Source: a virus
DNA length: 39,591 nt
Reading direction: 5' to 3' (one strand)
IMG/VR virus record: IMGVR_UViG_3300045988_054897
Position numbers and translations under genes: made by a program. Below the pieces are notes generated by a model. It was given only the letters and a program-made list of their open reading frames with translations. It ran no database searches and was not told where the DNA came from. Position 1 is the first letter of the stretch, and the number at the start of each line of letters is the position of its first letter. Of this stretch, positions 600-37,774 are shown in pieces.

Positions 600-1196
600 A
601 TGTGGCTACCTATATATGGATATGAGGGGATTTATGAAATAAGCGATTTTGGAGAAGTAAAAAGCCTAAACTACAACCATACCGGAAAAGAAAAGATTTT
701 GGCAAAGAAGCGCCATCGATCAGGATATGACACCGTTGTGCTCTGCAAAAACGCAGAAAAGAAAAATAAGTCTATACATATTCTTGTCGCACAAGCGTTT
801 GTAGATAACCCGCAACGAAAACCGCAAGTAAACCACAAAGATGGAAACAAGCACAACAATTGTGCAGAAAATCTTGAATGGGTTACTGCGTCGGAAAACA
901 TCAAGCACAGTTTTGATGTTCTCGGGAAGCAGCCAATTAACAAGGGTAGACTTGGGAAATCCCATTATGCTGCAAAACCAATATATCAATATTCCTTGGA
1001 TGGAACTCTCGTTAAGGCATGGGATTGCGTTTCGGACGCTGCCCGCGAAATTGGTTGTAAGCCTTGCCAAATCCTAAATAATGTAAAAGGCAGGAATAGA
1101 ACTTGTCATGGCTATATGTGGAGGTACGAAAAGTACAACAGCATAGGCACCGAGCCGGTAACCAGTCGGAAAACGCACAAAAAAACAGGCTTATAG
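600..1196 (+). CDS. HNH homing endonuclease (NUMOD4 + HNH_3 type), free-standing, opposite strand to its neighbours
   Basis: GYEGIYEISDFGEV (NUMOD4-like), VNHKDGNKHNNCAENLEWVTASEN (HNH), C-terminal ...GYMWRY DNA-binding tail; visibly AT-rich island. Confidence 0.9.
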   Translation: MWLPIYGYEGIYEISDFGEVKSLNYNHTGKEKILAKKRHRSGYDTVVLCKNAEKKNKSIHILVAQAFVDNPQRKPQVNHKDGNKHNNCAENLEWVTASENIKHSFDVLGKQPINKGRLGKSHYAAKPIYQYSLDGTLVKAWDCVSDAAREIGCKPCQILNNVKGRNRTCHGYMWRYEKYNSIGTEPVTSRKTHKKTGL

Positions 1197-10496: not shown

Positions 10497-11366
10497 CATT
10501 TCGTTACCCCCGGTTTCCCGGTATTATAAAAAGCCACGCGCGTTTCCGCACATGGCTTTTAAGGGATTAGACTATATCTTCAACTTTTTCAAAAATCCAG
10601 CCCTTTTTATTTCTCTTGCGGTATCGACTGTTGTACTTAATTTCGCTGTCAGAACAGTGGAAGTATTCAGCCGCCGCTTGTCTGGATTCAAATAGGATCG
10701 TTTTGCCGTCGAGATGTGTGGCCCTTACAGGGCGCTTCTTATTTTTAATTCTGGAATGATACCCATACGACAGTGCGTTTTCAGAGGGCGTCACCCATCT
10801 CAAATTAGAAACGTCATTGTTTGAGCGGTTCCCGTCTATGTGGTCAACCCAGCACCTTTCTTTGTTCTCTGGTTTTTCAAGAAAAGCATCAGCAACAAGT
10901 CGGTGTACATGCTTAGATATTGTAATCCTGCAATATCCAGCATTTTTGCTAAGCACCATTATTTGCCCGGTGCTATCTTTCTTAACTCTGCCCTTATTGC
11001 TGACTGAGTATCCCGGTAAATCGGGAATCTGTTTCCAAATCTCCACGGCTTTTAATCCTTTCAGAAAAAGTTGGTGCGCACTTCCAACGTCGTACCAATA
11101 GGCGTTGTACTCGGTGACGAACCGATAGTCGTTTGACCTTCTATGCTTTGTATTATATCATAATTTCACATGCTTTGCAAGTGTAATTTTGATATAGCAT
11201 AGCTTGGCACAGGATAACCATGCTGTAAAAGCCATAAACAGTTTAGGTTTCCCCTGTTAGCACAACTGTCTCATGCGGCCATTTCCTGCCGCCTTTTCAG
11301 CTGCACACCCGTGGTAGGTTCACGCACGCTCACTGCATAATCACTTATGCAGCGGACATTAGATTT
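10497..11366 (-). mobile_element. Group I intron (870 nt) carrying an HNH homing endonuclease, inserted in the tape measure gene
   Basis: 5' exon ends in U (..ACGAU|), intron ends in G (..GAAAUG|). J8/7-like AAGAUAUAGUC at 10580..10570. UAAUCC (10569..10564) can pair with GGAUUA (11058..11053) as P7. Two GAAA-tetraloop hairpins lie at 10510..10555. Confidence 0.75.
10567..11046 (-). CDS. HNH homing endonuclease (intron-encoded)
   Basis: GTG start; PGYSVSNKGRV (NUMOD4-like), VDHIDGNRSNNDVSNLRWVTPSEN (HNH); AT-rich. Confidence 0.85.
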   Translation of the reverse strand: MEIWKQIPDLPGYSVSNKGRVKKDSTGQIMVLSKNAGYCRITISKHVHRLVADAFLEKPENKERCWVDHIDGNRSNNDVSNLRWVTPSENALSYGYHSRIKNKKRPVRATHLDGKTILFESRQAAAEYFHCSDSEIKYNSRYRKRNKKGWIFEKVEDIV

Positions 11367-16994: not shown

Positions 16995-17505
16995 TTTTCA
17001 GCTCGCTTTCCAGAATGTCCCGATACTGCCCCGCATGGTCGGCGGCAGCGGGCTTCAGAAACGGCTGTGCCTTGTTGCCGCGCGTGTAATGCCAGTTGCC
17101 CTTTGCATCTTGGTACACCCACGGTGTAGGCCGCCCGCCGCCGCCTTCGGCATAAATGCCCGTACCAAGCTCAACGTAAGGCGCATACTCAACATTTGTC
17201 CCAATATATACCGCAGGTTCATCTTCGTCCACAACATGAGTAATGCTATTCCTAAGATTGCCCGTATCTGGTATTTGCAGCTTTTTCGCATATCCCTCTG
17301 CCACCAGCCCGCACTTTTCAAGCCCGCGCAGAAGCGCCGCATGGATGGCGCCAGAAACCTCTTTGCTGTTGTCGGTGATTTCAACGTTCATCACAAAATC
17401 CCTCTTGACTTTTTTTCGGGAATTGAATATACTGACAGTGAGGAAACTCATGTTTCCGTTTTTCGAGCCGAACCTCTTCCCGTTACTGGAGGGGGGGCGG
17501 CTCAT
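16987..17505 (-). CDS. HK97 gp10-family head-tail/tail component
   Basis: IPDTGNLRNSITH...VEYAPYVELGTG matches the gp10-family pattern. ATG 17505 overlaps the MuF stop (ATGA); alternative start ATG 17391 (MNVEITDN). Confidence 0.7.
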   Translation of the reverse strand: MSRPPSSNGKRFGSKNGNMSFLTVSIFNSRKKVKRDFVMNVEITDNSKEVSGAIHAALLRGLEKCGLVAEGYAKKLQIPDTGNLRNSITHVVDEDEPAVYIGTNVEYAPYVELGTGIYAEGGGGRPTPWVYQDAKGNWHYTRGNKAQPFLKPAAADHAGQYRDILESELKNG

Positions 17506-18947
17506 TTTTTATACCTTCGTGCAAATAGGAGAGAACCGTTCTCTTCCAATGCAATCACATCAAACCCGAACCCAGTGCTAACCACGCTTCGAACTGCTCT
17601 ATCATCTACAACGCGTATAAGCTCATCGGTATCGATGGATCCTGTGCACTGTAACACAACCCCTCCAGGAGTTTTTGCAATTTGCTTTGTGGCTTTTCGA
17701 ATCGCCATATCTGCCGCTTTCGCTGTTGATATACTTTTCAATTCCCACTGTTTACCGCGCCACAGGTAGTCCGGTGTTTTTATCCCCTGCGCATTCGCTT
17801 CTTTCAACAGCACGATCTTTCCGCCAAACTGATTGCGCAGTTGATTCGCAGCTTCAATTTCAGTTTCATGGCCTTTTGCACGATAGCCGTTTTCGTATCG
17901 TACCTTACCCATGCGCGGCTTGGCGGAATCTATGTATTTCTTCGTAACATCCTTTGCAGATTTTTCGTTCCCCATGTGATATGGGGATAACTGTCTGCCG
18001 CTGTATCCCTGCTTCGATGCTTCCCACTGCGCATATGTCATGTCAGATATAAGCCCGTCATCCACCGCCACAATCAGCGTACAACGGCAGTTATATATCT
18101 CCCACGGTGGCCCTTGTGGGTCGCCGGGAAAGCGGCAGCCGTTGGAAAATTTCTTGTCCTGCGCCACTTGTTCGCCGTCAAGCATGGCATGAGAGTGGCG
18201 TGTACGCGCATCCAGCGTGGCCAACCAACATTTTTTGAGCTTTATCCCCATCTTCTCCGCCGCCGCGTAGCTTTCCATGCGTCCGGCGTTCTGCGCGCCG
18301 GTCACGGCGGTTCTGGCGGTGCGGATGGCGGAATTGCGGCTCATGGTGGTAATCCGCTTTTGCAGGTCGTCCGCCATATGCTTGATGCTCTTTCCCTGCA
18401 AGATAGAACTTGTCACGCTTGCCGTGATCTGCTTCTTACCATACGCGAGGTCGATACCGCGCTTTAAGGCGCGTTTCGGTGGGTAATATGGCATTAAGTC
18501 CGGCTGCTCTACCATAATCCGCTTGACCGTCTGCTCGTCCCACAGGTCAAAGCCGACGTTGCCCGCGACCTGCTCGATGGTGTACGCCGAATAGTTGCGG
18601 TTAAGGGAGTAGATACCGGGCGTTGCATCGTTTGTGTAGGCCACCGCCACAGCGTTTGCGTCGGTCACGCGGCGGGCCACCTTGTCACGCATGGCCTGAT
18701 AGCGTTCCCCGCGCCCGATCTGGTTGAGCCGCCATTGCTTATAATCGGCCTCCGTCCATTCCTTACCGTTCTGCACGGTGCCGATCAGCGCTTTCATTTC
18801 CTCGTCGCGCTTTTTAAATTGCTCAAAATATGCGTCGATGGTAGCTTGCAGTTCTTCCCCAGCTTCGCGGTATAGCTTTGCAATACGACGTTCCAGCTTT
18901 GCAAGCTCCTTGTCGGTCAGCTTGTGACCGAGGTCACTGTTCGCCAT
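17502..18947 (-). CDS. Phage Mu F / SPP1 gp7-like head morphogenesis protein fused to a C-terminal PD-(D/E)xK nuclease-like toxin domain
   Basis: MuF core ...LATLDARTRHSHAMLDGEQV...NCRCTLI. C-terminal ~150 aa has GHETEIEAANQL...IKTPDYLWRGKQWELKS (E..PD..ExK). Confidence 0.8.
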   Translation of the reverse strand: MANSDLGHKLTDKELAKLERRIAKLYREAGEELQATIDAYFEQFKKRDEEMKALIGTVQNGKEWTEADYKQWRLNQIGRGERYQAMRDKVARRVTDANAVAVAYTNDATPGIYSLNRNYSAYTIEQVAGNVGFDLWDEQTVKRIMVEQPDLMPYYPPKRALKRGIDLAYGKKQITASVTSSILQGKSIKHMADDLQKRITTMSRNSAIRTARTAVTGAQNAGRMESYAAAEKMGIKLKKCWLATLDARTRHSHAMLDGEQVAQDKKFSNGCRFPGDPQGPPWEIYNCRCTLIVAVDDGLISDMTYAQWEASKQGYSGRQLSPYHMGNEKSAKDVTKKYIDSAKPRMGKVRYENGYRAKGHETEIEAANQLRNQFGGKIVLLKEANAQGIKTPDYLWRGKQWELKSISTAKAADMAIRKATKQIAKTPGGVVLQCTGSIDTDELIRVVDDRAVRSVVSTGFGFDVIALEENGSLLFARRYKK

Positions 18948-20324: not shown

Positions 20325-21557
20325 CTATCTGTTCCAAAGTGGTGTATACTCGCGCCGATACGCCTTGTTCTTCAGGATCGTATAAGCAAAATACCGTGTT
20401 TCGTCCATCGCGTGGTCGTTTTCTTTGATCGGTCTGTCATCGACGGATTTTTCGTCCCACCGATACAGCCCAAACTCCCGAATGCAGTCTTTGCAGCCGC
20501 GATGCACCTTGAGAATGCCGTCCTGCAAAAACCGCGCCGTTGTCATAATGCCGTTGGTTACGTCGTTGTTTGCTTTGCGAACCATATAACCGCGCCGCCG
20601 CAAAACCTCGATAAACGATGCGGCAGACGGGTCAACGATGATGCTTTTGACGTCCGCCTTGCCGATCAGCTTTTCGATTTCGTCGGCGTATTCCTCGTCC
20701 GTCTTGTTCTTCTGGTTCTCGCGCCCGGAATAGTAATACTCGCGGATGCGCGTTGCCGTCTTGCCGTCCCAGCGCCACAGCCCTGCGGAAAACGGGTTAA
20801 GCGTGCCGTAGTCGCAGGAAACATAGTATTCGCCCTTTTCCGGAAGCTCGTCCACAATGCAGCTATCGCCAAACATGGGATAGATCAGTCCCTCGGCCAC
20901 CACCCACAAGCCGCGAATGTATCGGTCGTAGAACACGCCGCTATACATGGCCTTTGTCCTCTCGATCATCTGCGGTGTGAGAATTGGGTTATCTTCCAGC
21001 AGGAAGTGAATGTGCTGCGTATTCTCCCGTTCGTTTTCAATCCACTCTTTGTAAAACCAATGCTGCGGTGATTCGGGGTTGCAGTTAAAAAAATACTTCG
21101 GATGCTCAAATGAAATCGCACGGGAAAGCGCTTGCTCCACAAACGAACGCGGCATAAGTGCCACTTCATCGAATAAGACCCCGGCAAGCGTGATGCCTTG
21201 TATGAGCATATACGAGCTTTCATCCTTACCGCCGAATAAGTAAAACCAATTTGTTCTATCCCCACACCGAACGGTTAAAATTCTCGTGGAAACCTTGTAA
21301 TGCATGGACAGTGCAACACCCAGCCCGTCAATTTCCATCAACGGTTTTAAGATATTTCGCTCTGCCGCCTGCACCGTCTTCCCGCAAATAGCGAAATTCG
21401 TGCGGTCGTAGTTCTGCATCGCCCACAGCACAAACGCCATCGACATGACCGTCGTCTTTCCGGAACGGACGGAGCCGTCACAAATCAGCGCCATATCATC
21501 GGAGCTGATAAACTCCATTATTTTGCGCTGCTTTGCGGATAGCGTTTTAATTTGCAT
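20325..21557 (-). CDS. terL: Terminase large subunit
   Basis: Walker A DGSVRSGKTT; nuclease-half motifs; 410 aa. Confidence 0.9.
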   Translation of the reverse strand: MQIKTLSAKQRKIMEFISSDDMALICDGSVRSGKTTVMSMAFVLWAMQNYDRTNFAICGKTVQAAERNILKPLMEIDGLGVALSMHYKVSTRILTVRCGDRTNWFYLFGGKDESSYMLIQGITLAGVLFDEVALMPRSFVEQALSRAISFEHPKYFFNCNPESPQHWFYKEWIENERENTQHIHFLLEDNPILTPQMIERTKAMYSGVFYDRYIRGLWVVAEGLIYPMFGDSCIVDELPEKGEYYVSCDYGTLNPFSAGLWRWDGKTATRIREYYYSGRENQKNKTDEEYADEIEKLIGKADVKSIIVDPSAASFIEVLRRRGYMVRKANNDVTNGIMTTARFLQDGILKVHRGCKDCIREFGLYRWDEKSVDDRPIKENDHAMDETRYFAYTILKNKAYRREYTPLWNR

Positions 21558-21981
21558 TGTTCTCGCCCTTTAACGCAGTGAGCAAAGCTGCCAACGCCGC
21601 AGGATCGCCGCTTTTTTCGTTCTCGGAATTCCACCCAAAATTGCAGCCAAGCGAGAATTTCGCGCCGTTCGCACCGTCTTTGTCGTAGAGCCGAGATTCG
21701 GCGTATTCCTCGCAGCGGGACTTCGCGCGCGTAACCGTGTCCGCAAACTCTGGTCTCCCCTGATAATCAATCAGCGCCTGCCGCCCTGTGAACCCAAGCG
21801 ACAGCGCCAGCCCTGTTACCGTCGGCGGCTTTTCATCTAAAATAATCGGCCTTCCGTATTTATCTGTGGCAACATCGCCGTCAATCATAAGCGGTGTCCC
21901 TTTGCAGCTCTCAAAGTAAGCGTCAATAGCTTCCTGCATTGCCTTTACGCTTTTCCATTTTCTTGGCGCTCCGCCAGCCAT
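21547..21981 (-). CDS. terS: Terminase small subunit
   Basis: Start moved to ATG 21981 (MAGGAPRKW) after GGGAGTGAG; HTH-like PPTVTGLALSLGFTGRQALIDY; overlaps the terL start. Confidence 0.7.
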   Translation of the reverse strand: MAGGAPRKWKSVKAMQEAIDAYFESCKGTPLMIDGDVATDKYGRPIILDEKPPTVTGLALSLGFTGRQALIDYQGRPEFADTVTRAKSRCEEYAESRLYDKDGANGAKFSLGCNFGWNSENEKSGDPAALAALLTALKGENNAN

Positions 21982-22732
21982 GCGCTCACTCCCTTTCGTT
22001 TTGCTACCAGCCCCCACCCCTTGGCCTTACATAGCAGACTTTACCCGCCCCGCAGTCTCTACCATTACCCCACGCATAAGCGCAAGCCTTCGATTTTGAG
22101 GGGCATACACGCTGTCTCTTCCAGCCGTCAAGATTGGTTTGCATAACCTCCGTGCCCAAAGACACGAGCCGCTATCCGGTACGGCATTGCAGTCCTGCCC
22201 TGCTTTAGCGCTTCGGGGAAAGTCCCCGTCACTCGCTGTGGTCTTCCCTTACGGGGCACCTATGCCGTGTATGTGCAGATCCCGCTTAGATTGTCACACG
22301 CTCATGCCCGCTTGAGGCCCCGCAAGCATTTCAAGCGCTTTCATCAGTAACGGCAAGGAGGACGCATCCCCACGCGCAGTTTTCAGCAGGCATTGTCATT
22401 CTCTGTGAGGCGTTCTGCGTACTCTCACATCATCCGGGAGCGACCCGGCCTCTGGCACGGACAGTTGGGAATCGAACCCACCGCACACGGTTTTGGAGAC
22501 CGCGTCGCCACCTTGGTACATTTGCCCGTATATGTCTCCCCTGGGACACATCGGTGAGAGGTGCGGGGAGTCCGGTCATGTGGGCGACCTCGGCGCCGAG
22601 GTCTAGTCACGGTTGCCGCGAGGACGGTGCGACCGTCCAGCCCTCGGAAGGTGATGTGCATACGAGCCACGGCATATTGCCCTCAACCGCCCGCCCCGAA
22701 GGGCGGGCTATCAAGGGAGGAGGAAACAGATG
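21982..22732 (-). ncRNA. Candidate large structured RNA or structured late-operon leader (class unknown; GOLLD/ROOL-like context)
   Basis: ~750 nt with no RBS-preceded ORF, GC as high as in coding DNA, many perfect local stems, embedded tRNA-like element; strand inferred from that element. Confidence 0.4.
22453..22529 (-). tRNA. tRNA-Trp(CCA)-like element with a defective D stem (pseudo-tRNA or tRNA-like module)
   Basis: Acceptor ACGGGCA/TGTCCGT + G + CCA; anticodon arm GCGGT-CTCCAAA-ACCGT; GGTTCGATTCC T arm with one extra nt; D stem TGTA vs GCGA does not pair. Confidence 0.4.
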
Positions 22733-22772
22733 AAAAAGCAGAGGCGTGAAGAGCCTCGCCCCATCACGCCTC
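22731..22772 (-). terminator. Terminator at the end of the early operon (hairpin has T-runs on both strands)
   Basis: GAGGCGTGA...TCACGCCTC; minus strand followed by TGCTTTTTCA, plus strand by TATTTTTG. Confidence 0.55.
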
Positions 22773-22819
22773 TATTTTTGCATAGGTTTTTCTTATTTTT
22801 CCCCTTAAAAGGGGAATTT

Positions 22820-23059
22820 TCAAAATTTTTTTAGATAATCGTCCACGGTCATTGGATTATCCGTCCTTCCGAGCAGATAATCGACCGACACCCCGAACTT
22901 GTCGGCAATGCTTTCCAATGCGTCCGTTGTGGGCGTAGCCTCCCCCGCCTCGTACCGCCTCACCGCGTCACGGTGCAGACCGCACAGTTCAGAGAGGACA
23001 TATTGCTTTATTCTCTTTCTCTCCCGTAAGCGCTTCAAACGCTCGGGAAATGCGCTCAT
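22820..23059 (-). CDS. XRE-family HTH regulator (79 aa)
   Basis: Start moved to ATG 23059 (ATGA overlap); FPERLKRLRERKRIKQYVLSELCGLHRDAVRRYEAGEATPTTDALESIADKFGVSVDYLLG. Confidence 0.75.
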   Translation of the reverse strand: MSAFPERLKRLRERKRIKQYVLSELCGLHRDAVRRYEAGEATPTTDALESIADKFGVSVDYLLGRTDNPMTVDDYLKKF

Positions 23060-23259
23060 GCCAGCACCTCCTCCGGTCGGAAACTCTCTTTGATCTCCTT
23101 GCCGTCTACCATGATCGCCACGGTCACATAACGCCTCTGTGGATGGATGTACGTCACCACGCCGGTGCGGAGCGGGTATAGCTTTTCGCCGCGCGCCTTG
23201 CCCGGAAACTCCTCCGGCACCGTCATAAACTGCGCCCGTACCTTGTCGCCTACTTTCAT
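23056..23259 (-). CDS. Hypothetical protein (67 aa)
   Basis: ORF track; translationally coupled on both sides. Confidence 0.55.
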   Translation of the reverse strand: MKVGDKVRAQFMTVPEEFPGKARGEKLYPLRTGVVTYIHPQRRYVTVAIMVDGKEIKESFRPEEVLA

Positions 23260-23471
23260 TCCGCACCTCCGAACGCTTCCTCAAATGTCAGGCCGCTCTC
23301 TCTGAGGATGCCTTTGATCACGTCGATGGTATGCTGATTGTTGCCCGAAAGCCACCACCAGATGTTGCTCTTGGAAATGCCTACCGCATCGGCAAGCTGG
23401 CGGCGCGTGTACTGCCGCTCGCAGAAAACCTTTTTCAGCGCCGGATAGACGCAATAGGGAAATTCGATCAT
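23256..23471 (-). CDS. Small HTH protein (71 aa)
   Basis: Start moved to ATG 23471 (ATGA overlap); YTRRQLADAVGISKSNIWWWLSG. Confidence 0.6.
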   Translation of the reverse strand: MIEFPYCVYPALKKVFCERQYTRRQLADAVGISKSNIWWWLSGNNQHTIDVIKGILRESGLTFEEAFGGAE

Positions 23472-25929: not shown

Positions 25930-27178
25930 ACCCCTTTCATCCGTTCCTCAACCCTCCAATCATCGTTCCGCACCTGAAATGCGTCGCCAAGCTGGATGGT
26001 CTCGGGGAAATTGTGCTGCGTGGTCTGGATGGCGTATTTGTCGATCTCGGTCGCGTAGTATCTGAGCAACCACGGCTGTACGCCCAGCTTGCCCAGCGCG
26101 ATATGGCCGCAGCTCATACCGTCGTACATGGAAAGCACTTCCACCGGCTCCGTGGTCAGCCCCTCAAAGTGGCTCATGATATGCGCGATCACATCCACCG
26201 TCCAGCCGTTGCCCAGCATCTTATAGGCTTGGCTGTTGCTCACCGGGAAAACATACTCCTCCGGCACGGTCTGGAGGCGCTTGCACTCCGTCACGGTCAG
26301 CTTGCGGATGATGTAAAAGCCGTCTCGCAGTTTGATCGGGTATCGCTTGCCTTTAATGGCAATAAAGCCGTCGCGGACTTCGTATACGGGCCACGCTTTC
26401 CCATCCGGGCCGCCGACCGGCGTTGCATAAAGGCCCGTCTTGGCTCCCAGCCCCCCGCCGTTGCCGCAGAGGGTCACGCTCTTTCCGTCCGGCGAATAGA
26501 CGCGGTATTGCTGGCTGTCAAAGGCCGAGTTCTTCGCGTCATTCTCGATGGTGCCGACACGGACAGGCTCGGCTATGCAGTCGTATTGTTGCTTTGCCTG
26601 GTTCGGATTGTTTATCCTTGGCACAAGGTTGTTTTCGAGCTTTCCCATGTGCGCGTCAACGGTTCGCGCCTTTCCGTTTTTCATTCCATTGACGACGATC
26701 GGCTCTGCGACCATCGTGCGGCGGTGTTTCGTAAGCGTCTGTTGCGGATTGCTTCCCTTGGCTTCTGTAGCCGTGATGCAGTAAGATTTTTCCGACCATG
26801 CAACGCCGGTCTCCAGAATGTCCCGCAACAGAATACCCCTGTCCTCCGGTTGCTCGATCGGCACCTGGCTGTATGTACCGTCCGACTCGCGCTTGCCTAC
26901 CCAATATAAGCGCTGGCGGTTCTGCGCCGATACCAGCGCGGAGTTGATCAGCACGGGTTCAACGTCCAGCTCCGCCGTGATTTGCGTCCGGATAGCGGGC
27001 GACATGGATTTGTTGTTCTCGTAGAGGAAATAGTCCGGTTTGTATTTGTCGCGGGCAATGCGGTAATTCAAGAACAGCTCCCAGCCGATGCCGCTGGCCT
27101 CGGTCTCGCGGTTCTTGGTCTGCGCGATACTCCAGTGAGCTAAGTGCATGGAGACCCGCCGATAAGCAGTTTAACCAT
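25926..27178 (-). pseudogene. DNA (cytosine-5) methyltransferase with circularly permuted motif order (IV-X then I-III). Reading frame broken by a 5-nt insertion right after the catalytic PC motif
   Basis: GGAGGAGGTGG RBS, then ATG 27178 MVKLLIGGSPCT, TAG at 27142..27140, extra TAGCT (27142..27138), then HWSIAQTKNRETEASGIGWELF...FLYENNKSM...SAQNRQRLYW...TECKRLQTVPEEY...MLGNGWTVDV...VLSMYDGMSCG...YYATEIDKYA...GDAFQV*. Confidence 0.7.
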
Positions 27179-27719
27179 GCAAAACCACCTCCTCCGAATA
27201 CCTAAATTTATATCCGCCGGTCGATTTATAACGGCGTTTCCCCTTGCAAACGCAAACGACCGTAGACGGGTTTACCCCCAGTGCTATAGCAGCCTCTTTT
27301 ATGCTGCTCCACAGGTGAATTGGCTCCCCGTCCATAGATAACTGCCATACGGGACGCTCCTTCGCTTTGTTTCGTGCCCTTGCTCCTTGTCCATAGGAGT
27401 TTTGACGGGACATATTAGCCCATTCCAGATTTGACAATCTGTTATTTGTCTTATCTTCATCCAGGTGGTTTACAGTAAGAAGTCCGTTCGGATTTGGTAT
27501 AAAAGTATTTGCAACCACCCTATGTAGAAGCAGACTTCTTGCAGTTCCGTCTTTAGATAGATGCACTCGAACATAGCCGTTTCGCTCAACTTTTTGTTTT
27601 AGGCTCCGACCCGTTCTTGAATTTCGTACCTCTCCATTATCCGAAACCTCGTAGAATCCTTCATACCCCGAAATTGGTCTCCAGTGCGTGCAGGGCGAGC
27701 CGCCGATCAATAGTTTCAT
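27171..27719 (-). CDS. HNH homing endonuclease translationally fused to a recoded copy of the first 13 methyltransferase codons
   Basis: GAGGAGG RBS; MKLLIGGSPCTHW then RPISGYEGFYEVSDNGEV (NUMOD4), VNHLDEDKTNNRLSNLEW (HNH). Its last codons contain the RBS and ATG of the methyltransferase. Confidence 0.85.
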   Translation of the reverse strand: MKLLIGGSPCTHWRPISGYEGFYEVSDNGEVRNSRTGRSLKQKVERNGYVRVHLSKDGTARSLLLHRVVANTFIPNPNGLLTVNHLDEDKTNNRLSNLEWANMSRQNSYGQGARARNKAKERPVWQLSMDGEPIHLWSSIKEAAIALGVNPSTVVCVCKGKRRYKSTGGYKFRYSEEVVLHG

Positions 27720-36083: not shown

Positions 36084-36476
36084 ATGAATATTCAAGAAGT
36101 GTGCAGAATCCGTAAAGAGGACTTAAAACTGACCTATCAAGACATTTCCGACGATTCCGGCGTACCGCTGTCCACCGTGCAGAATTTCTTTTCCAAGTTT
36201 TCGAAAGCTCCGTCGATCTACACCGTCGCGCCGATTTGCAAAGCGCTTGGAATATCGCTTGATGAAGCGTTCGGAATTTCCGAACACTTGACACCGACCG
36301 AGGAAACTTTGCAGGCGCGGAATGACGAGCTGGAACGCCATGTTGACGCGAAAGCGGATACCATTGAGATCATGCGGCGCGGCGTGCGTATCCGCAACGG
36401 CGTGATTGCTATAATGTTTGTCATTATCGTTCTGCTGTCTGCATGGTGCTTGTATATTGATTGGAGGGGGATTTGA
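36084..36476 (+). CDS. XRE HTH protein with C-terminal TM segment, coupled to the integrase
   Basis: KLTYQDISDDSGVPLSTVQNFFS; C-terminal VIAIMFVIIVLLSAWCLYI; stop overlaps the integrase ATG. Confidence 0.7.
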   Translation: MNIQEVCRIRKEDLKLTYQDISDDSGVPLSTVQNFFSKFSKAPSIYTVAPICKALGISLDEAFGISEHLTPTEETLQARNDELERHVDAKADTIEIMRRGVRIRNGVIAIMFVIIVLLSAWCLYIDWRGI

Positions 36477-37774
36477 TGAGAGCGGCGCTATATATCCGAG
36501 TGTCCAGCGAGGAACAGGCGCGGCATGGTCTATCATTACAAGAGCAGCGGGACACGCTGACAAGGTATGCCAATGCAAATAAAATGACCGTGGTGGGCAT
36601 ATATGAGGACGCGGGCATATCCGCGCGAAAGCCGTATAAAAAGCGACCTGCGCTCCTGCGGCTGCTGGATAATTGCAAAGCGGGGAAGGTAGACACGATT
36701 CTGTTTATCAAGCTCGACCGATGGTTTCGCAATGTCGCGGGATACTACGACGTGCAGACGCAGTTGGACAAATACGGCGTGACATGGCAGGCGACGGAAG
36801 AGGACTACGAAACGCGCACCGCGTCCGGGCGATTAAAGGTCAACATCATGCTTTCCGTCGCGCAGGACGAGGCCGACCGCACAAGCGAGCGGATCAAATT
36901 TATCAACAACGGCAAGCGTGCAAAAGGCCAACCGGCAGGGTCAAAAGCCCCTTTAGGGTATATCATCAAGGACAGGCAATACCAGATTGATAACGATACG
37001 GCAGATGCCGCGCGAGATATGTTTGCGGCGTATGTCAGACTGCAAAGCGTGTTGGGCGTAAAACGCTATATGCTTGAGACATGGGGCATTGACCGCGCGT
37101 ATACCAAGTATGTAAACTATTTTCGGAACCGGCTTTATATCGGCGAGGTGTACGGCATCGAGAATGCTTGCCCCGCCCTGGTGAGCAAGCAGGATTTTGA
37201 CATTGTAAATGATATCCTCCGTCAGCGGTCGCAGCGCTGCGCGGGAGTTGAGACAGATCGCGTTTATCTGTTCTCGGGGTTGCTGCATTGCAAAGAGTGT
37301 GGGAAAACGATGCAGTCGGAAACGGCAAAGCATATCTATACCTACTACCGATGCCGGACGCGAATGCTTGACAACTCCGCGTGCCAGCATAAAAAGAGGA
37401 TCCGCGAAGACGCGCTGGAAGATTACTTATTGCATGAGCTTGAAGGGATTGCCGAGCGAAACAATCGCTATTACAAAAAGGCAGAAAAAAAGCCCACGCA
37501 AAGCGCGGACGCGATACGCAAGAAAATGGGTAAGTTGAAAACGCTTTATCTTAACGACTTGATCGAGTTGGACGAATACAAGAAAGAGTACACCACATTA
37601 AAGAAATCCATTGAAGCGGTAGAGGAAAAGCCGAAGACAAACCTTGACGCGCTCCGAAATGGACTTGCTGAATATGACACTTATTCCCGGGAAGAGAAAA
37701 AGGAATTCTGGACGCGCTTTATCCGGAGAATTGACGCAGATGACGACGGCGCGTTTTTTGTAACGCCACGTTAG
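36476..37774 (+). CDS. Large serine recombinase (phage integrase)
   Basis: Start at ATG 36476 after GGAGGGGG; AALYIRVSSEEQ catalytic Ser motif, recombinase domain, zinc ribbon CKECGKTMQ...YYRC, C-terminal coiled coil. Confidence 0.9.
   Translation: MRAALYIRVSSEEQARHGLSLQEQRDTLTRYANANKMTVVGIYEDAGISARKPYKKRPALLRLLDNCKAGKVDTILFIKLDRWFRNVAGYYDVQTQLDKYGVTWQATEEDYETRTASGRLKVNIMLSVAQDEADRTSERIKFINNGKRAKGQPAGSKAPLGYIIKDRQYQIDNDTADAARDMFAAYVRLQSVLGVKRYMLETWGIDRAYTKYVNYFRNRLYIGEVYGIENACPALVSKQDFDIVNDILRQRSQRCAGVETDRVYLFSGLLHCKECGKTMQSETAKHIYTYYRCRTRMLDNSACQHKKRIREDALEDYLLHELEGIAERNNRYYKKAEKKPTQSADAIRKKMGKLKTLYLNDLIELDEYKKEYTTLKKSIEAVEEKPKTNLDALRNGLAEYDTYSREEKKEFWTRFIRRIDADDDGAFFVTPR

What the first reader, a model, noticed from the sequence alone, without database searches (positions are those of the whole stretch)
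21982..22732. ~750-nt hairpin-dense region with no credible ORF and an embedded tRNA-Trp-like element upstream of terS: candidate large structured phage RNA
The rest of the genome is almost gap-free, with genes overlapping or 0-30 nt apart. This stretch has only Arg-rich ORFs without an RBS, yet its GC content stays as high as in coding DNA. It holds many perfect local stems. Examples are GCCCGCCC-CGAA-GGGCGGGC (22689-22708), the 18-nt palindrome GACCTCGGCGCCGAGGTC (22586-22603), GGACGGT-GCG-ACCGTCC (22622-22638), CGGGGA-AAG-TCCCCG (22214-22228) and CGCTTGA...TCAAGCG (22309-22337). At 22529..22453 (minus strand) there is a 77-nt tRNA-like fold. It has a 7-bp acceptor stem plus G-CCA, a canonical anticodon loop CUCCAAA (anticodon CCA = Trp), G18G19 in register and a GGTTCGATTCC T arm. 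However, the D stem cannot pair and the T stem has one extra nt. The large ornate RNAs GOLLD and ROOL are known to occur in Firmicute prophages next to or around tRNAs, so this could be one of them or a new class. A long structured late-operon leader or pac region is the alternative.
Basis: partly seen in the sequence, partly recalled or inferred. Interest (0 to 1): 0.8.

Follow-up and report, generated by a model that had tools for sequence, protein, structure and literature searches.

The report
Phage small-RNA cassette array, not one RNA
The 750-base gap before the phage packaging genes is not one giant RNA but a row of separate small structured RNA genes (an odd tRNA-Trp, a tRNA-shaped RNA with no anticodon, and a roughly 175-nt RNA common in phage tRNA arrays) that related gut phages swap like cassettes.

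Summary
The interpretation as one large ornate RNA does not hold. Rfam finds no GOLLD, ROOL or other large RNA even at E<=10, and the whole-region fold is not unusually stable (z = -1.3). In about 260 related loci the region breaks into modules that are deleted, swapped and permuted independently. The cargo lies between a conserved leader hairpin (B) and a conserved pre-late-gene element (F) and ranges from 45 to 730 nt. The window carries four cargo modules:
- a tRNA-Trp variant;
- "D" (about 175 nt), which starts in fixed register after a tRNA CCA end, occurs in at least 62 viral contigs, and is a stand-alone sRNA in a Clostridium viride prophage;
- "E" (92 nt), a four-way junction with a 7-bp acceptor stem and NCCA tail but no anticodon, seen in 120 distinct copies;
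- a DUF3800-VIII-like hairpin.
B, D and E have covariation support and no Rfam match. Their function is unknown. Release by tRNA-processing enzymes and action in trans is inferred.

The parts
22724..22789 (-). Bidirectional intrinsic terminator after the HTH_3 gene (stem AGAGGCGTGA/TCACGCCTCT with U/T runs on both strands). It marks the upstream end of the RNA island.
   Evidence: Inverted repeat I1 and a terminator-like hit at 22757-22741. The segment is conserved at 93-100% in relatives as part of module A.
22672..22724 (-). Module A2: a long imperfect hairpin, CCCUUGAUA-GCCCGCCC-UUCG-GGGCGGGC-GGUUGAGGG.
   Evidence: Inverted repeats I2/I9. MFE -30.4 kcal/mol, z = -3.35. Found in 21 distinct related loci, where it usually abuts B directly.
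22580..22672 (-). Module B': a rare three-hairpin spacer. It holds the GGACGGT/ACCGTCC stem (22622-22638) and the 18-nt palindrome (22586-22603). Function unknown.
   Evidence: Found in only 3 other loci. z = -2.11. One compensatory change, GGACGGU/ACCGUCC to GGGCGGU/ACCGCCC.
22530..22579 (-). Module B: the conserved leader hairpin. It has a 6-bp covarying stem (22565-22570 with 22536-22541) and a near-invariant 24-nt loop GCACCUCUCAACGAUGUGNCCCAG. It ends in ACAUAU immediately before +1 of the first tRNA or tRNA-like gene.
   Evidence: 54 distinct copies aligned in A5. Four of six stem pairs change on both sides; 50 such cells against 14.9 in shuffles, 0/500. No Rfam match.
22453..22529 (-). 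Module C: a non-canonical tRNA-Trp (anticodon CCA). It has a 7-bp acceptor stem with A1-U72, G73 and an encoded CCA, and the loop CUCCAAA. The D stem is degenerate. The T stem has six positions with an invariant G.A.
   Evidence: ARAGORN. It fails the Rfam tRNA gathering score; the best hit is tRNA-Sec at 38.1 bits, below the cut-off of 47. Thirteen distinct copies fall into two subtypes with compensatory acceptor and anticodon-stem changes.
22278..22452 (-). Module D: a structured RNA of about 175 nt that starts directly after the CCA of module C.
- H1: 22444-22448 with 22434-22438.
- H2: 22424-22428 with 22405-22409.
- Conserved single strand GAAUGACAAUG.
- Long-range helix CCUGCU (22385-22390) with AGCGGG (22281-22286).
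- Conserved internal loop GAAAACU / GUGACAAUCUA.
- Inner helix 22374-22377 with 22298-22301, which encloses a variable domain.
   Evidence: Alignments A2 and A4. 92% of cells are paired; 12 pairs change on both sides against 6.0 in shuffles, 0/500. Found in 62 IMG/VR contigs, almost always right after a tRNA, and in 12 bacterial genome loci, including a stand-alone sRNA in C. viride. No Rfam match.
22177..22268 (-). Module E: a tRNA-shaped four-way junction RNA. It has a 7-bp acceptor-like stem (22262-22268 with 22181-22187). Arm 1 has a GNRA loop. Arm 3 has 4 bp and the 7-nt loop GGCAGGA. It ends in discriminator A plus CCG; the family consensus is CCA. There is no anticodon loop.
   Evidence: Alignment A1 of 38 sequences. 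97% of cells are paired; 10 pairs change on both sides against 1.9 in shuffles, 0/500. The single-sequence MFE gives the same fold, z = -2.46. Of 120 distinct copies, 99 end in NCCA and 113 have 7/7 acceptor pairs. Not called by ARAGORN or Rfam.
22108..22176 (-). Module X: a rare spacer after E. It contains a weak terminator-like hairpin overlapping the 3' end of E (22168-22185). Function unknown.
   Evidence: Four distinct copies only. Terminator-like hit. z = -1.24.
22044..22107 (-). Module G: a DUF3800-VIII-like hairpin. It reads as an expansion of the first hairpin of F (GCCC-loop-GGGC), carrying an inner stem-loop.
   Evidence: RF03075 at 36.0 bits, below the gathering score of 40.2, E = 2e-4. 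The homologous copy in L068 passes at 48.5 bits. Comparison with the F alignment.
21982..22062 (-). Module F plus the RBS: the conserved element GGGCGGGUAAAGUCUGCUAUGUAAGGCCAAGGGGUGGGGGCUGGUAGCAAA, followed by the terS ribosome-binding site (GGGAG) and the ATG at 21981.
   Evidence: Conserved in 111 distinct loci. It precedes terS or, in other phages, a different first late gene.

Best explanation
The gap upstream of terS is a cassette-like island of separate small RNA genes in a temperate Oscillospiraceae siphophage. It lies on the same strand as the late genes.

Two conserved elements frame it. One is a 5' leader hairpin (B). The other is a pre-late-gene element (F) that ends in the terS ribosome-binding site. 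Between them each phage carries its own selection of modules.

This window carries:
- a structurally aberrant tRNA-Trp (C) that keeps the Trp identity elements;
- a roughly 175-nt complex-folded RNA (D);
- a 92-nt tRNA-shaped RNA (E) with an acceptor stem and a CCA-type tail but no anticodon;
- a DUF3800-VIII-like hairpin (G).

Shown here: the modules are independent evolutionary units; B, C, D and E are under selection for strand-specific RNA secondary structure; D and E are widespread phage RNA families absent from Rfam; and D also exists as a stand-alone sRNA gene.

Inferred: the island is transcribed as one precursor, probably continuous with the late operon. Host tRNA-maturation enzymes cut it at the tRNA-shaped units, with RNase P acting 5' of C and E and trimming back to CCA at the 3' ends. 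This releases C, D and E as stable RNAs that act in trans.

Most speculative: their job is to sustain translation, or to blunt tRNA-targeting host defences or toxins, during late infection. C would be a cleavage-resistant substitute tRNA-Trp. E would be a tRNA mimic or decoy. D would be a protein- or ribosome-binding RNA of unknown target.
For: Mosaic organisation.
- BLAST and nhmmer of the window against 86 terS-anchored loci give discrete blocks joined in different combinations and orders. A joins E directly in L004, L012 and L039. D precedes C in L064 and L074. In L001, E comes before D, the reverse of the window's order, and both lie between true tRNAs.
- The cargo between B and F is 45-730 nt in 55 distinct arrays.

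Structure under selection.
- Covariation tests for E, D, B and C each exceed all 500 shuffles on covariation score, cells changed on both sides and percentage paired. For E and D the number of pairs changed on both sides also exceeds every shuffle; for B and C it does not (82/500 and 316/500). All four exceed all slid controls.
- Frequent G-U pairs fix the strand as the tRNA-sense strand.

tRNA-array behaviour.
- Of 53 D copies, 38 have CCA and 10 more have CAA exactly 4 nt before H1.
- D follows tRNAs of many identities and is often followed within about 12-15 nt by another tRNA, including in phage contigs of 119-230 kb.
- E keeps an NCCA tail in 99 of 120 copies and a 7/7 acceptor stem in 113 of 120.
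- E and the tRNAs share the same leader context, AUAU/AUAC/AUUC before +1.

Trans-acting sRNA.
- In C. viride DSM 6836 the D core has its own TGnTATAAT promoter and intrinsic terminator, next to a phage integrase.

Same slot, known sRNAs.
- In relatives the slot holds true tRNAs, drum RNA, int-alpA RNA and DUF3800-VIII RNA.

Precedent for function.
- Phage tRNAs, including a non-cleavable tRNA-Lys variant, rescue infection from tRNA-cleaving defences (PMC10802454, PMC11555353).
Against: No expression or end-mapping data are available, so co-transcription, processing sites and stability are all inferred.

No promoter was identified between the terminator and B.

C fails the general tRNA covariance model and has an abnormal D arm and T stem, so it may not be chargeable.

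The window's E copy ends in CCG rather than CCA, so it would need trimming and CCA addition, or it may be decaying.

Encoded CCA is an anti-determinant for RNase Z (general knowledge), so how the 5' end of D is generated is unclear. C and D could remain fused.

The sequences used are related, and much of the covariation in C rests on two subtypes, so there are few independent events.

No partner protein or target was found for D or E.
Confidence: 0.62

Rival explanations
1. A purely cis-acting structured leader of the late operon. B and F would be regulatory RNA elements, for example an antitermination or translation-control signal. The tRNA-shaped inserts would serve only as processing or insulating punctuation for the late mRNA, with no trans function.
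For: B and F are present even when the cargo is only 45 nt. F always directly precedes whichever late gene comes first. A strong terminator lies just upstream, so some read-through or new-initiation mechanism is needed. The B stem covaries while its loop is nearly invariant, as expected for a factor-binding site.
Against: D and E are conserved far beyond this phage family and away from terS. They occur inside tRNA arrays of unrelated large phages, and D occurs as a stand-alone sRNA. About 40 invariant unpaired nucleotides in D are hard to explain by punctuation alone. This rival is compatible with the main explanation for B and F.
Confidence: 0.2
2. One large ornate RNA, either a GOLLD- or ROOL-like RNA or a new large class, in which all the stems belong to a single fold that embeds a tRNA-like domain.
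For: GOLLD and ROOL are often near tRNAs and in prophages (PMC5737381). The region is about 700 nt, non-coding and GC-rich, with many stems.
Against: There is no Rfam match to GOLLD, ROOL or any large RNA at E<=10. Modules occur singly, in other orders and in other genomic contexts. All covarying pairs found lie within modules. The whole-region MFE is not exceptional, z = -1.32.
Confidence: 0.03
3. A decaying tRNA array: pseudo-tRNAs and recombination scars left by homing-endonuclease-driven exchange, with no present function.
For: C is non-canonical. The window's E has CCG instead of CCA. The B' and X pieces are rare. The phage carries three NUMOD4/HNH homing endonuclease genes. About a third of ARAGORN 'tRNAs' in relatives have non-canonical anticodon loops.
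Against: Compensatory changes keep the helices of B, C, D and E. The aberrant features of C are invariant across 13 variants rather than random. D and E have long invariant single-stranded tracts across many phages.
Confidence: 0.08
4. A DNA-level element, either a pac/cos site or a recombination site, or else small protein-coding genes, explains the conservation.
For: The position is next to terS. There is a plus-strand ORF of 34 aa with a strong SD at 22730-22834.
Against: G-U pairs make the structures strand-specific, so they are RNA and not duplex DNA. The module content differs between phages that share nearly identical terS. The ORFs are short, have no Pfam hits and are broken in relatives.
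Confidence: 0.03

Closest known systems
Phage tRNA gene clusters that also encode small stable RNAs of unknown function (for example the T4 tRNA region with species 1 and 2 RNAs; from general knowledge, not tested here)
   Same: Tightly packed, co-oriented tRNA and non-tRNA stable-RNA genes with only a few nucleotides between units. The non-tRNA units sit where a tRNA would. Homing endonuclease genes are found in the same genomes.
   Different: This array is small and lies in a temperate gut Firmicute siphophage directly upstream of terS. It is framed by conserved B and F elements. The D and E sequences have no described relatives.
GOLLD (RF01998) and ROOL (RF03087) large ornate RNAs
   Same: Prophage location, proximity to tRNAs, non-coding and highly structured (PMC5737381).
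   Different: There is no covariance-model match. Here the roughly 700 nt are several independent units of 50-175 nt rather than one fold.
Prophage-associated structured sRNA motifs from Weinberg et al. 2017 (drum, DUF3800-I to XI, skipping-rope, int-alpA)
   Same: Complex conserved sRNAs of unknown function. drum, int-alpA and DUF3800-VIII occupy the same slot in relatives. The window has a sub-threshold DUF3800-VIII-like hairpin. The stand-alone D copy has a 3' terminator, like drum and DUF3800-I.
   Different: D, E and B match none of these models. No DUF3800 gene was found among 40 window ORFs.
Phage-encoded tRNAs that evade tRNA-cleaving defences (T5 tRNA-Lys variant against PARIS; tRNA-Tyr against retron-Eco7; PMC10802454, PMC11555353)
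   Same: A phage-borne tRNA with sequence or structure that departs from the host type. C keeps its identity elements but has altered D and T arms.
   Different: No defence system that targets tRNA-Trp is known for these hosts, and nothing was tested here. E lacks an anticodon, so it could only be a mimic and not a substitute.
tRNA-like RNAs (tmRNA tRNA-like domain, bacterial YrlA Y-RNA tRNA-like module, viral 3' tRNA-like structures)
   Same: E has an acceptor-type stem with an NCCA tail and a four-way junction.
   Different: E has no T-loop consensus, no D loop, no Rsr-binding stem and no tag reading frame. ARAGORN finds no tmRNA, and Rfam finds no YrlA or tmRNA.

Membership tests
GOLLD RNA (RF01998) | Match to the family covariance model | tested here: not met
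   No hit at the gathering score on the whole window or at E<=10 on 21500-23300.
ROOL RNA (RF03087) | Match to the family covariance model | tested here: not met
   No hit at the gathering score or at E<=10.
Large ornate RNA in general | One conserved fold spanning the whole element, with parts co-inherited in fixed order | tested here: not met
   Modules are deleted, swapped and permuted among relatives. All supported pairs lie within modules.
Canonical elongator tRNA (module C) | Score at or above the Rfam RF00005 gathering score (29 bits) | tested here: not met
   No tRNA hit at gathering thresholds in the window. Homologous 77-nt copies in L003, L030, L048 and L051 also fail, while true tRNAs in the same loci score 40-67 bits.
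Canonical elongator tRNA (module C) | Cloverleaf with a 7-bp acceptor stem and a 7-nt anticodon loop with U33 and purine 37 | tested here: met
   ARAGORN tRNA-Trp(cca), loop CUCCAAA. Acceptor and anticodon stems are kept by compensatory changes.
Canonical elongator tRNA (module C) | 4-bp D stem, and a 5-bp T stem abutting the acceptor stem (12-bp acceptor/T helix) | tested here: not met
   The D stem has at most 2-3 weak pairs. The T side has six positions with an invariant G.A and an extra C.
Canonical elongator tRNA (module C) | Bacterial Trp identity set (CCA anticodon, G73, A1-U72; from general knowledge) and actual charging by TrpRS | not testable with these tools
   The sequence shows CCA, G73 and A1-U72 in the window and in most copies. 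Aminoacylation cannot be computed.
tRNA-Sec (RF01852) | Score at or above the gathering score (47 bits), UCA anticodon, long variable arm | tested here: not met
   38.1 bits. The anticodon is CCA. The 16-nt variable-arm insert of the model is absent.
tmRNA | tRNA-like domain plus a tag reading frame, as detected by ARAGORN or Rfam | tested here: not met
   ARAGORN in tRNA+tmRNA mode finds only the tRNA-Trp. There is no Rfam tmRNA hit.
DUF3800-VIII RNA (RF03075), module G | Score at or above the gathering score (40.2 bits) | tested here: inconclusive
   The window scores 36.0 bits, E = 2e-4, with several non-canonical pairs in the outer stem. The homologous copy in L068 scores 48.5 bits.
DUF3800-VIII RNA (RF03075), module G | A nearby gene encoding a DUF3800 domain (PMC5737381) | tested here: not met
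   No DUF3800 hit among 40 window ORFs scanned against Pfam. A few short ORFs were not scanned.
Phage tRNA/stable-RNA gene array | Several co-oriented RNA genes separated by only a few nucleotides, with non-tRNA units in tRNA-like positions | tested here: met
   C, D and E are contiguous (22529-22177). D begins at the base after the CCA of C. The same packing is seen in 62 viral contigs.
Phage tRNA/stable-RNA gene array | Co-transcription and maturation by RNase P and 3' processing enzymes | not testable with these tools
   No transcript data are available. This is inferred from the geometry only.

The most novel reading that the evidence does not exclude
The island encodes a previously undescribed toolkit of tRNA-shaped but non-decoding RNAs. 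These are E here, and in relatives a scaffold family with canonical acceptor, D and T arms but hypervariable 'anticodon' arms. Alongside them is a new complex-folded RNA class (D). All are matured by the host tRNA-processing machinery. They would act as decoys or sponges for tRNA-targeting immune nucleases or toxins. Alternatively, in the case of D, the RNA could be a new ribozyme or a ribosome- or protein-binding RNA. If so, phages would diversify RNA mimics as exchangeable anti-defence cassettes.
Probability: 0.15. Interest if true: 0.85.

Novelty: new variant of a known kind. Interest (0 to 1): 0.55.

Why it matters
The finding replaces a tempting 'new giant RNA' reading with a more accurate picture. 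A recombination hotspot in front of the packaging genes of common human-gut Oscillospiraceae phages carries interchangeable small RNA genes.

Three of the units (B, D and E) are widespread, supported by covariation and absent from Rfam 15. They are therefore candidate new RNA families.
- D has about 40 invariant nucleotides and is embedded in the tRNA arrays of many phages.
- E is a CCA-tailed tRNA look-alike without an anticodon.

If these RNAs interfere with tRNA-directed immunity or reprogram translation, they would extend the recently established 'phage tRNAs as counter-defence' idea from real tRNAs to RNA mimics.

They are directly testable, because cultured strains carry D copies: Clostridium viride DSM 6836, Pseudoflavonifractor phocaeensis and Lawsonibacter hominis.

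Tried and rejected
- Rfam at gathering thresholds on the whole window, and in E-value mode on 21500-23300 and 22165-22545, gave only a sub-threshold tRNA-Sec hit and a sub-threshold DUF3800-VIII hit. There was nothing for D, E or B.
- Whole-region folding on both strands gave z-scores that were not significant. The single-sequence MFE of D does not reproduce the comparative fold.
- The sigma-70 promoter scan found no convincing promoter between the terminator and B. Reading B as a promoter was rejected because its stem covaries.
- I considered D as a ribozyme that cleaves at its own 5' end to free the tRNA CCA end. The candidate P1 pairing between the 5' GAGGC and a GCCUC in the variable domain was rejected. 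In type-3 copies that GCCUC pairs locally, with GAGG/CCUC changing to GUGG/CCAC in L119. The C. viride stand-alone copy also lacks an upstream tRNA.
- By eye I considered D as a relative of tmRNA, RNase P RNA, SRP RNA, a T-box, a retron or an omega-RNA. No defining motifs are present, there are no Rfam hits, and no RT or TnpB gene is nearby.
- I considered a k-turn in arm 2 of E. The strand register does not fit the k-turn consensus, so I describe it only as a purine-rich internal loop.
- Searching for a DUF3800 partner gene in the window found none.
- Literature searches by sequence strings of D and E gave no relevant paper. The supplement of the 10,006-csRNA catalogue (PMC10690425) is not held, so I could not check whether D or E is listed there.
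- The GenBank phage collection holds only two unannotated faecal phage scaffolds with partial similarity.
Full report
**Context and observation**

The window is a temperate siphophage-like genome. It carries a serine recombinase at 36461-37774, HTH repressor-type genes, SSB, a C5 methylase, an SPP1-type portal, a MuF-like head protein and three NUMOD4/HNH endonuclease genes.

Around the finding, the genes run on the minus strand:
- an HTH_3 gene ending at 22820;
- then the gap;
- then terS (PF16677) and terL.

- GC is 0.57-0.62 in the gap.
- ORFs in the gap are at most 81 aa, and the two tested have no Pfam hits.

One part does not hold. The stretch is not unusually stable as a whole: the MFE z-score is -1.32 on the minus strand and -0.27 on the plus strand.

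**Not a known large RNA**

Rfam 15 returns nothing at gathering thresholds for the whole window. In permissive mode it returns only two hits:
- tRNA-Sec at 38.1 bits (cut-off 47) on the tRNA-like element;
- DUF3800-VIII at 36.0 bits (cut-off 40.2) at 22044-22107.

GOLLD, ROOL and all other large families are absent even at E<=10.

**The region is a mosaic**

Using TerS as an anchor I fetched 80 IMG/VR loci and 4 genome loci; the first three genome loci are Oscillospiraceae, Oscillibacter and Lachnospiraceae MAGs. Two unannotated faecal phage scaffolds came from GenBank.

BLAST and nhmmer of the window's minus strand against these loci break the gap into blocks that recombine freely. The blocks, from upstream to downstream on the minus strand, are:
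- A: terminator plus the GCCCGCCC hairpin, 22830-22672;
- B': 22672-22580;
- B: 22579-22530;
- C: the tRNA-like element;
- D: 22452-22278;
- E: 22268-22177;
- X;
- G: the DUF3800-VIII-like hairpin;
- F: 22062-21982.

Examples of rearrangement:
- A abuts E directly in L004, L012 and L039.
- D precedes C in L064 and L074.
- In L001, E comes before D, the reverse of the window's order, and both lie between genuine tRNA-Gln, a Thr-like tRNA and tRNA-Trp.

Across 55 distinct arrays the distance from B to F ranges from 45 to 730 nt, with 0-3 recognisable units.

The same slot in relatives carries true tRNAs, drum RNA (82 and 78 bits), int-alpA RNA, and a DUF3800-VIII RNA that passes its threshold.

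This pattern is incompatible with one co-folding 700-nt RNA. It is what a cassette array of independent genes looks like.

**Module E**

I aligned 38 distinct copies. They give a four-way junction:
- a 7-bp terminal stem;
- an arm capped by a GNRA tetraloop;
- a long arm with an invariant purine-rich internal loop (AGUGA/AAG) and a tip that switches between GGGGA/UCCCC, GCC/GGC and CCGG/CCGG;
- a 4-bp arm with a 7-nt loop;
- an unpaired A followed by CCA.

RNAalifold and the window's own MFE (z = -2.46) find the same fold. On this structure 97% of cells pair. Ten pairs change on both sides, against 1.9 in shuffles, and all slid controls collapse.

A pattern scan found at least 120 viral contigs and three Clostridia MAGs. 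Of 120 distinct copies, 99 end in NCCA and 113 keep 7/7 acceptor pairs, with several compensatory variants.

E is therefore a tRNA-shaped, CCA-tailed RNA with no anticodon loop. ARAGORN and Rfam do not recognise it. The window's copy ends in CCG.

**Module D**

D always begins in fixed register after a tRNA-type 3' end. Of 53 copies, 38 have CCA and 10 more have CAA exactly 4 nt before the first hairpin.

Its features are:
- two 5' hairpins with clear compensatory swaps (CCGGG/CCCGG to CUGGG/CCCAG and UCGGG/CCCGA; GUGAG/CUCAC to GUCGG/CCGAC and CUGAG/CUCAG);
- an invariant single strand GAAUGACAAUG;
- a long-range helix CYCGCU/AGCGGG;
- an invariant asymmetric internal loop (GAAAACU opposite GUGACAAUCUA);
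- an inner helix that covaries and closes a variable domain, seen in at least three unrelated versions.

On the A4 alignment 92% of cells pair. Twelve pairs change on both sides, against 6.0 in shuffles, and 52 cells against 19.2, with 0/500 shuffles reaching these values. G-U pairs fix the strand.

A pattern for the core hit 62 viral contigs, including phages of 119-230 kb. There it sits inside ordinary tRNA arrays, after tRNAs of many identities, and is often followed about 12-15 nt later by the next tRNA.

Twelve bacterial genome loci carry the full core. In Clostridium viride DSM 6836 it lacks the two 5' hairpins. It has its own extended -10 promoter (TGcTATAAT) and an intrinsic terminator, and it lies next to a phage integrase or among phage replication genes.

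So the D core is a bona fide small-RNA gene that phages either express alone or embed in tRNA arrays. It has no Rfam match.

**Module C**

Thirteen distinct copies fall into two subtypes. They differ by compensatory changes in the acceptor stem (C2-G71 to G2-C71; A7-U66 to G7-C66) and the anticodon stem.
- The anticodon loop CUCCAAA, G73, CCA and (mostly) A1-U72 are kept.
- The aberrant parts are conserved rather than random. These are the sequence UGUACCAAGG(N)UGGCGA in place of a D arm, and a six-position T stem with an invariant G.A.
- All copies fail the Rfam tRNA threshold, whereas true tRNA-Trp genes in L001 and L025 score 60-61 bits.

I read C as a selected, structurally deviant tRNA-Trp. 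Whether it is charged cannot be computed.

**Framing elements**

B (22530-22579) is present in 54 distinct aligned copies.
- Its 6-bp stem covaries at four positions (50 double-change cells against 14.9 in shuffles).
- Its 24-nt loop is nearly invariant.
- It ends in ACAUAU, ACAUAC or ACAUUC immediately before +1 of whichever tRNA, tRNA-like RNA or E comes first.

F (21998-22062) is conserved in 111 distinct loci. It directly precedes the RBS of terS or, in other phages, of a different first late gene.

The window's DUF3800-VIII-like hairpin reads as an expansion of the first small hairpin of F. No DUF3800 gene was found among 40 window ORFs.

B' and X are rare pieces with little comparative evidence.

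A strong bidirectional terminator separates the island from the upstream HTH gene. I found no sigma-70-type promoter after it.

**How it most likely works**

Shown:
- The units are independent.
- Their RNA structures are under selection on the late-gene strand.
- They are packed like a tRNA array.
- D exists as a stand-alone sRNA.

Inferred:
- The island is transcribed as a precursor, probably continuous with the late operon, because B and F persist even with minimal cargo.
- It is cut by RNase P at the 5' ends of C and E and trimmed at the CCA ends.
- This yields stable C, D and E RNAs that act in trans.

Speculative:
- The function relates to translation or to tRNA-directed conflict.
- Precedents exist. 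T5 escapes PARIS with a non-cleavable tRNA-Lys variant, and T5-like phages escape retron-Eco7 with tRNA-Tyr (PMC10802454, PMC11555353).
- C could be such a substitute. E, lacking an anticodon, could only be a mimic or decoy. D has the hallmarks of an RNA with a specific macromolecular partner: many invariant unpaired nucleotides around a junction.

Open problems:
- Encoded CCA disfavours RNase Z, so it is unclear how the 5' end of D is formed.
- The promoter is unknown.
- The window's E copy has CCG.

**Comparison and novelty**

The closest analogues are:
- phage tRNA clusters that include extra small stable RNAs (T4 species 1 and 2; from general knowledge);
- the prophage-associated sRNA motifs of Weinberg et al. 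2017 (drum, the DUF3800 series and others; PMC5737381).

GOLLD and ROOL share only the context.

A 2023 catalogue predicted 8,495 structured RNA candidates in IMG/VR, including tRNA-like ones (PMC10690425). D, E or B may be listed there, but I could not check.

I therefore rate this as a new variant of a known kind. It is a cassette-type small-RNA island with at least three RNA families that are uncurated in Rfam, not a categorically new large RNA.

**Verdict**

| Question | Result |
|---|---|
| Observation | Confirmed |
| Interpretation | Partly supported: structured ncRNA yes, one large RNA no |
| Interest | Moderate (0.55) |

The interest is moderate because the families are widespread and experimentally tractable, but their function is unknown and the genre is already well populated.

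Noticed in passing
related loci, e.g. L035:2449-2539, L046:1692-1771, L048:1419-1502, L002:3048-3129, L001:5391-5483: A family of tRNA-like genes with near-identical canonical acceptor, D and T arms (GCAGGCGUAGCUCAGUCGGUAGAGC...GGUUCGAGUCC...CCA). Their anticodon arm is hypervariable and non-canonical: no U33, loops that are not 7 nt, and insertions up to a total length of 93 nt. Of 144 distinct ARAGORN calls in the fetched loci, 50 have a non-canonical anticodon loop.
   Followed up: partly
L270:1955-2125 (Clostridium viride DSM 6836) and L297: The D core occurs as a stand-alone sRNA of about 135 nt. It has a TGcTATAAT promoter and an intrinsic terminator. It lies next to a phage integrase gene, and in a second copy among phage replication genes.
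   Followed up: partly
L067:1448-1553, L075:767-872, L075:965-1037, L068:2675-2738: drum RNA, int-alpA RNA and DUF3800-VIII RNA (all above Rfam gathering scores) occupy the same pre-terS slot in relatives of this phage.
   Followed up: no
window 17502-18947 (-): A MuF-like minor head protein (PF04233) with a weak, sub-threshold C-terminal match to a CdiA toxin domain (PF18451, 21.9 bits against 26.6). It may be a phage MuF polymorphic-toxin architecture.
   Followed up: no
window 600-1196 (+), 10567-11046 (-), 27171-27719 (-): Three NUMOD4 + HNH_3 homing-endonuclease-type genes in one 39.6-kb phage. This is consistent with the heavy mosaicism seen around the RNA island.
   Followed up: no
window 22730-22834 (+): A 34-aa ORF behind a very strong SD (AAGGGAGGAGG-N6-ATG), antisense to the terminator and the end of the HTH gene. 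It is frameshifted in L010 and truncated in L209, and its substitutions are non-synonymous, so it is probably not a gene. On the minus-strand RNA the same bases read CCUCCUCCC, an anti-SD-like tract.
   Followed up: yes
related loci, e.g. L013:2516-3001, L015, L021, L027, L044-L057: In many relatives one or more extra ORFs (about 480-750 nt) lie between element F and terS. F therefore marks the start of the late block rather than terS itself.
   Followed up: no
related loci upstream of F (alignment), and L011/L029/L272/L278 after B or D: Further recurring small modules of unknown nature occur here. Examples are UUGCGUACCAUGUUUGGCUCGGGGAGAGCCGGACACGCAA, GUAAGCAACUCAAAUGGAAAGAAUAACGCCCAAUGUGGGCGGCG, and a unit starting GCNGNGUGCAGNAGCAGAAGCGGAAG. 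The hotspot holds a larger set of small RNA candidates than the window shows.
   Followed up: no
window 21998-22062 (-): Element F may itself form an RNA hairpin: UGCUAU pairs with GUAGCA around a G-rich loop, GGCCAAGGGGUGGGGGCUG. Only wobble-type changes are seen between the two sequence variants, so the evidence is weak.
   Followed up: partly
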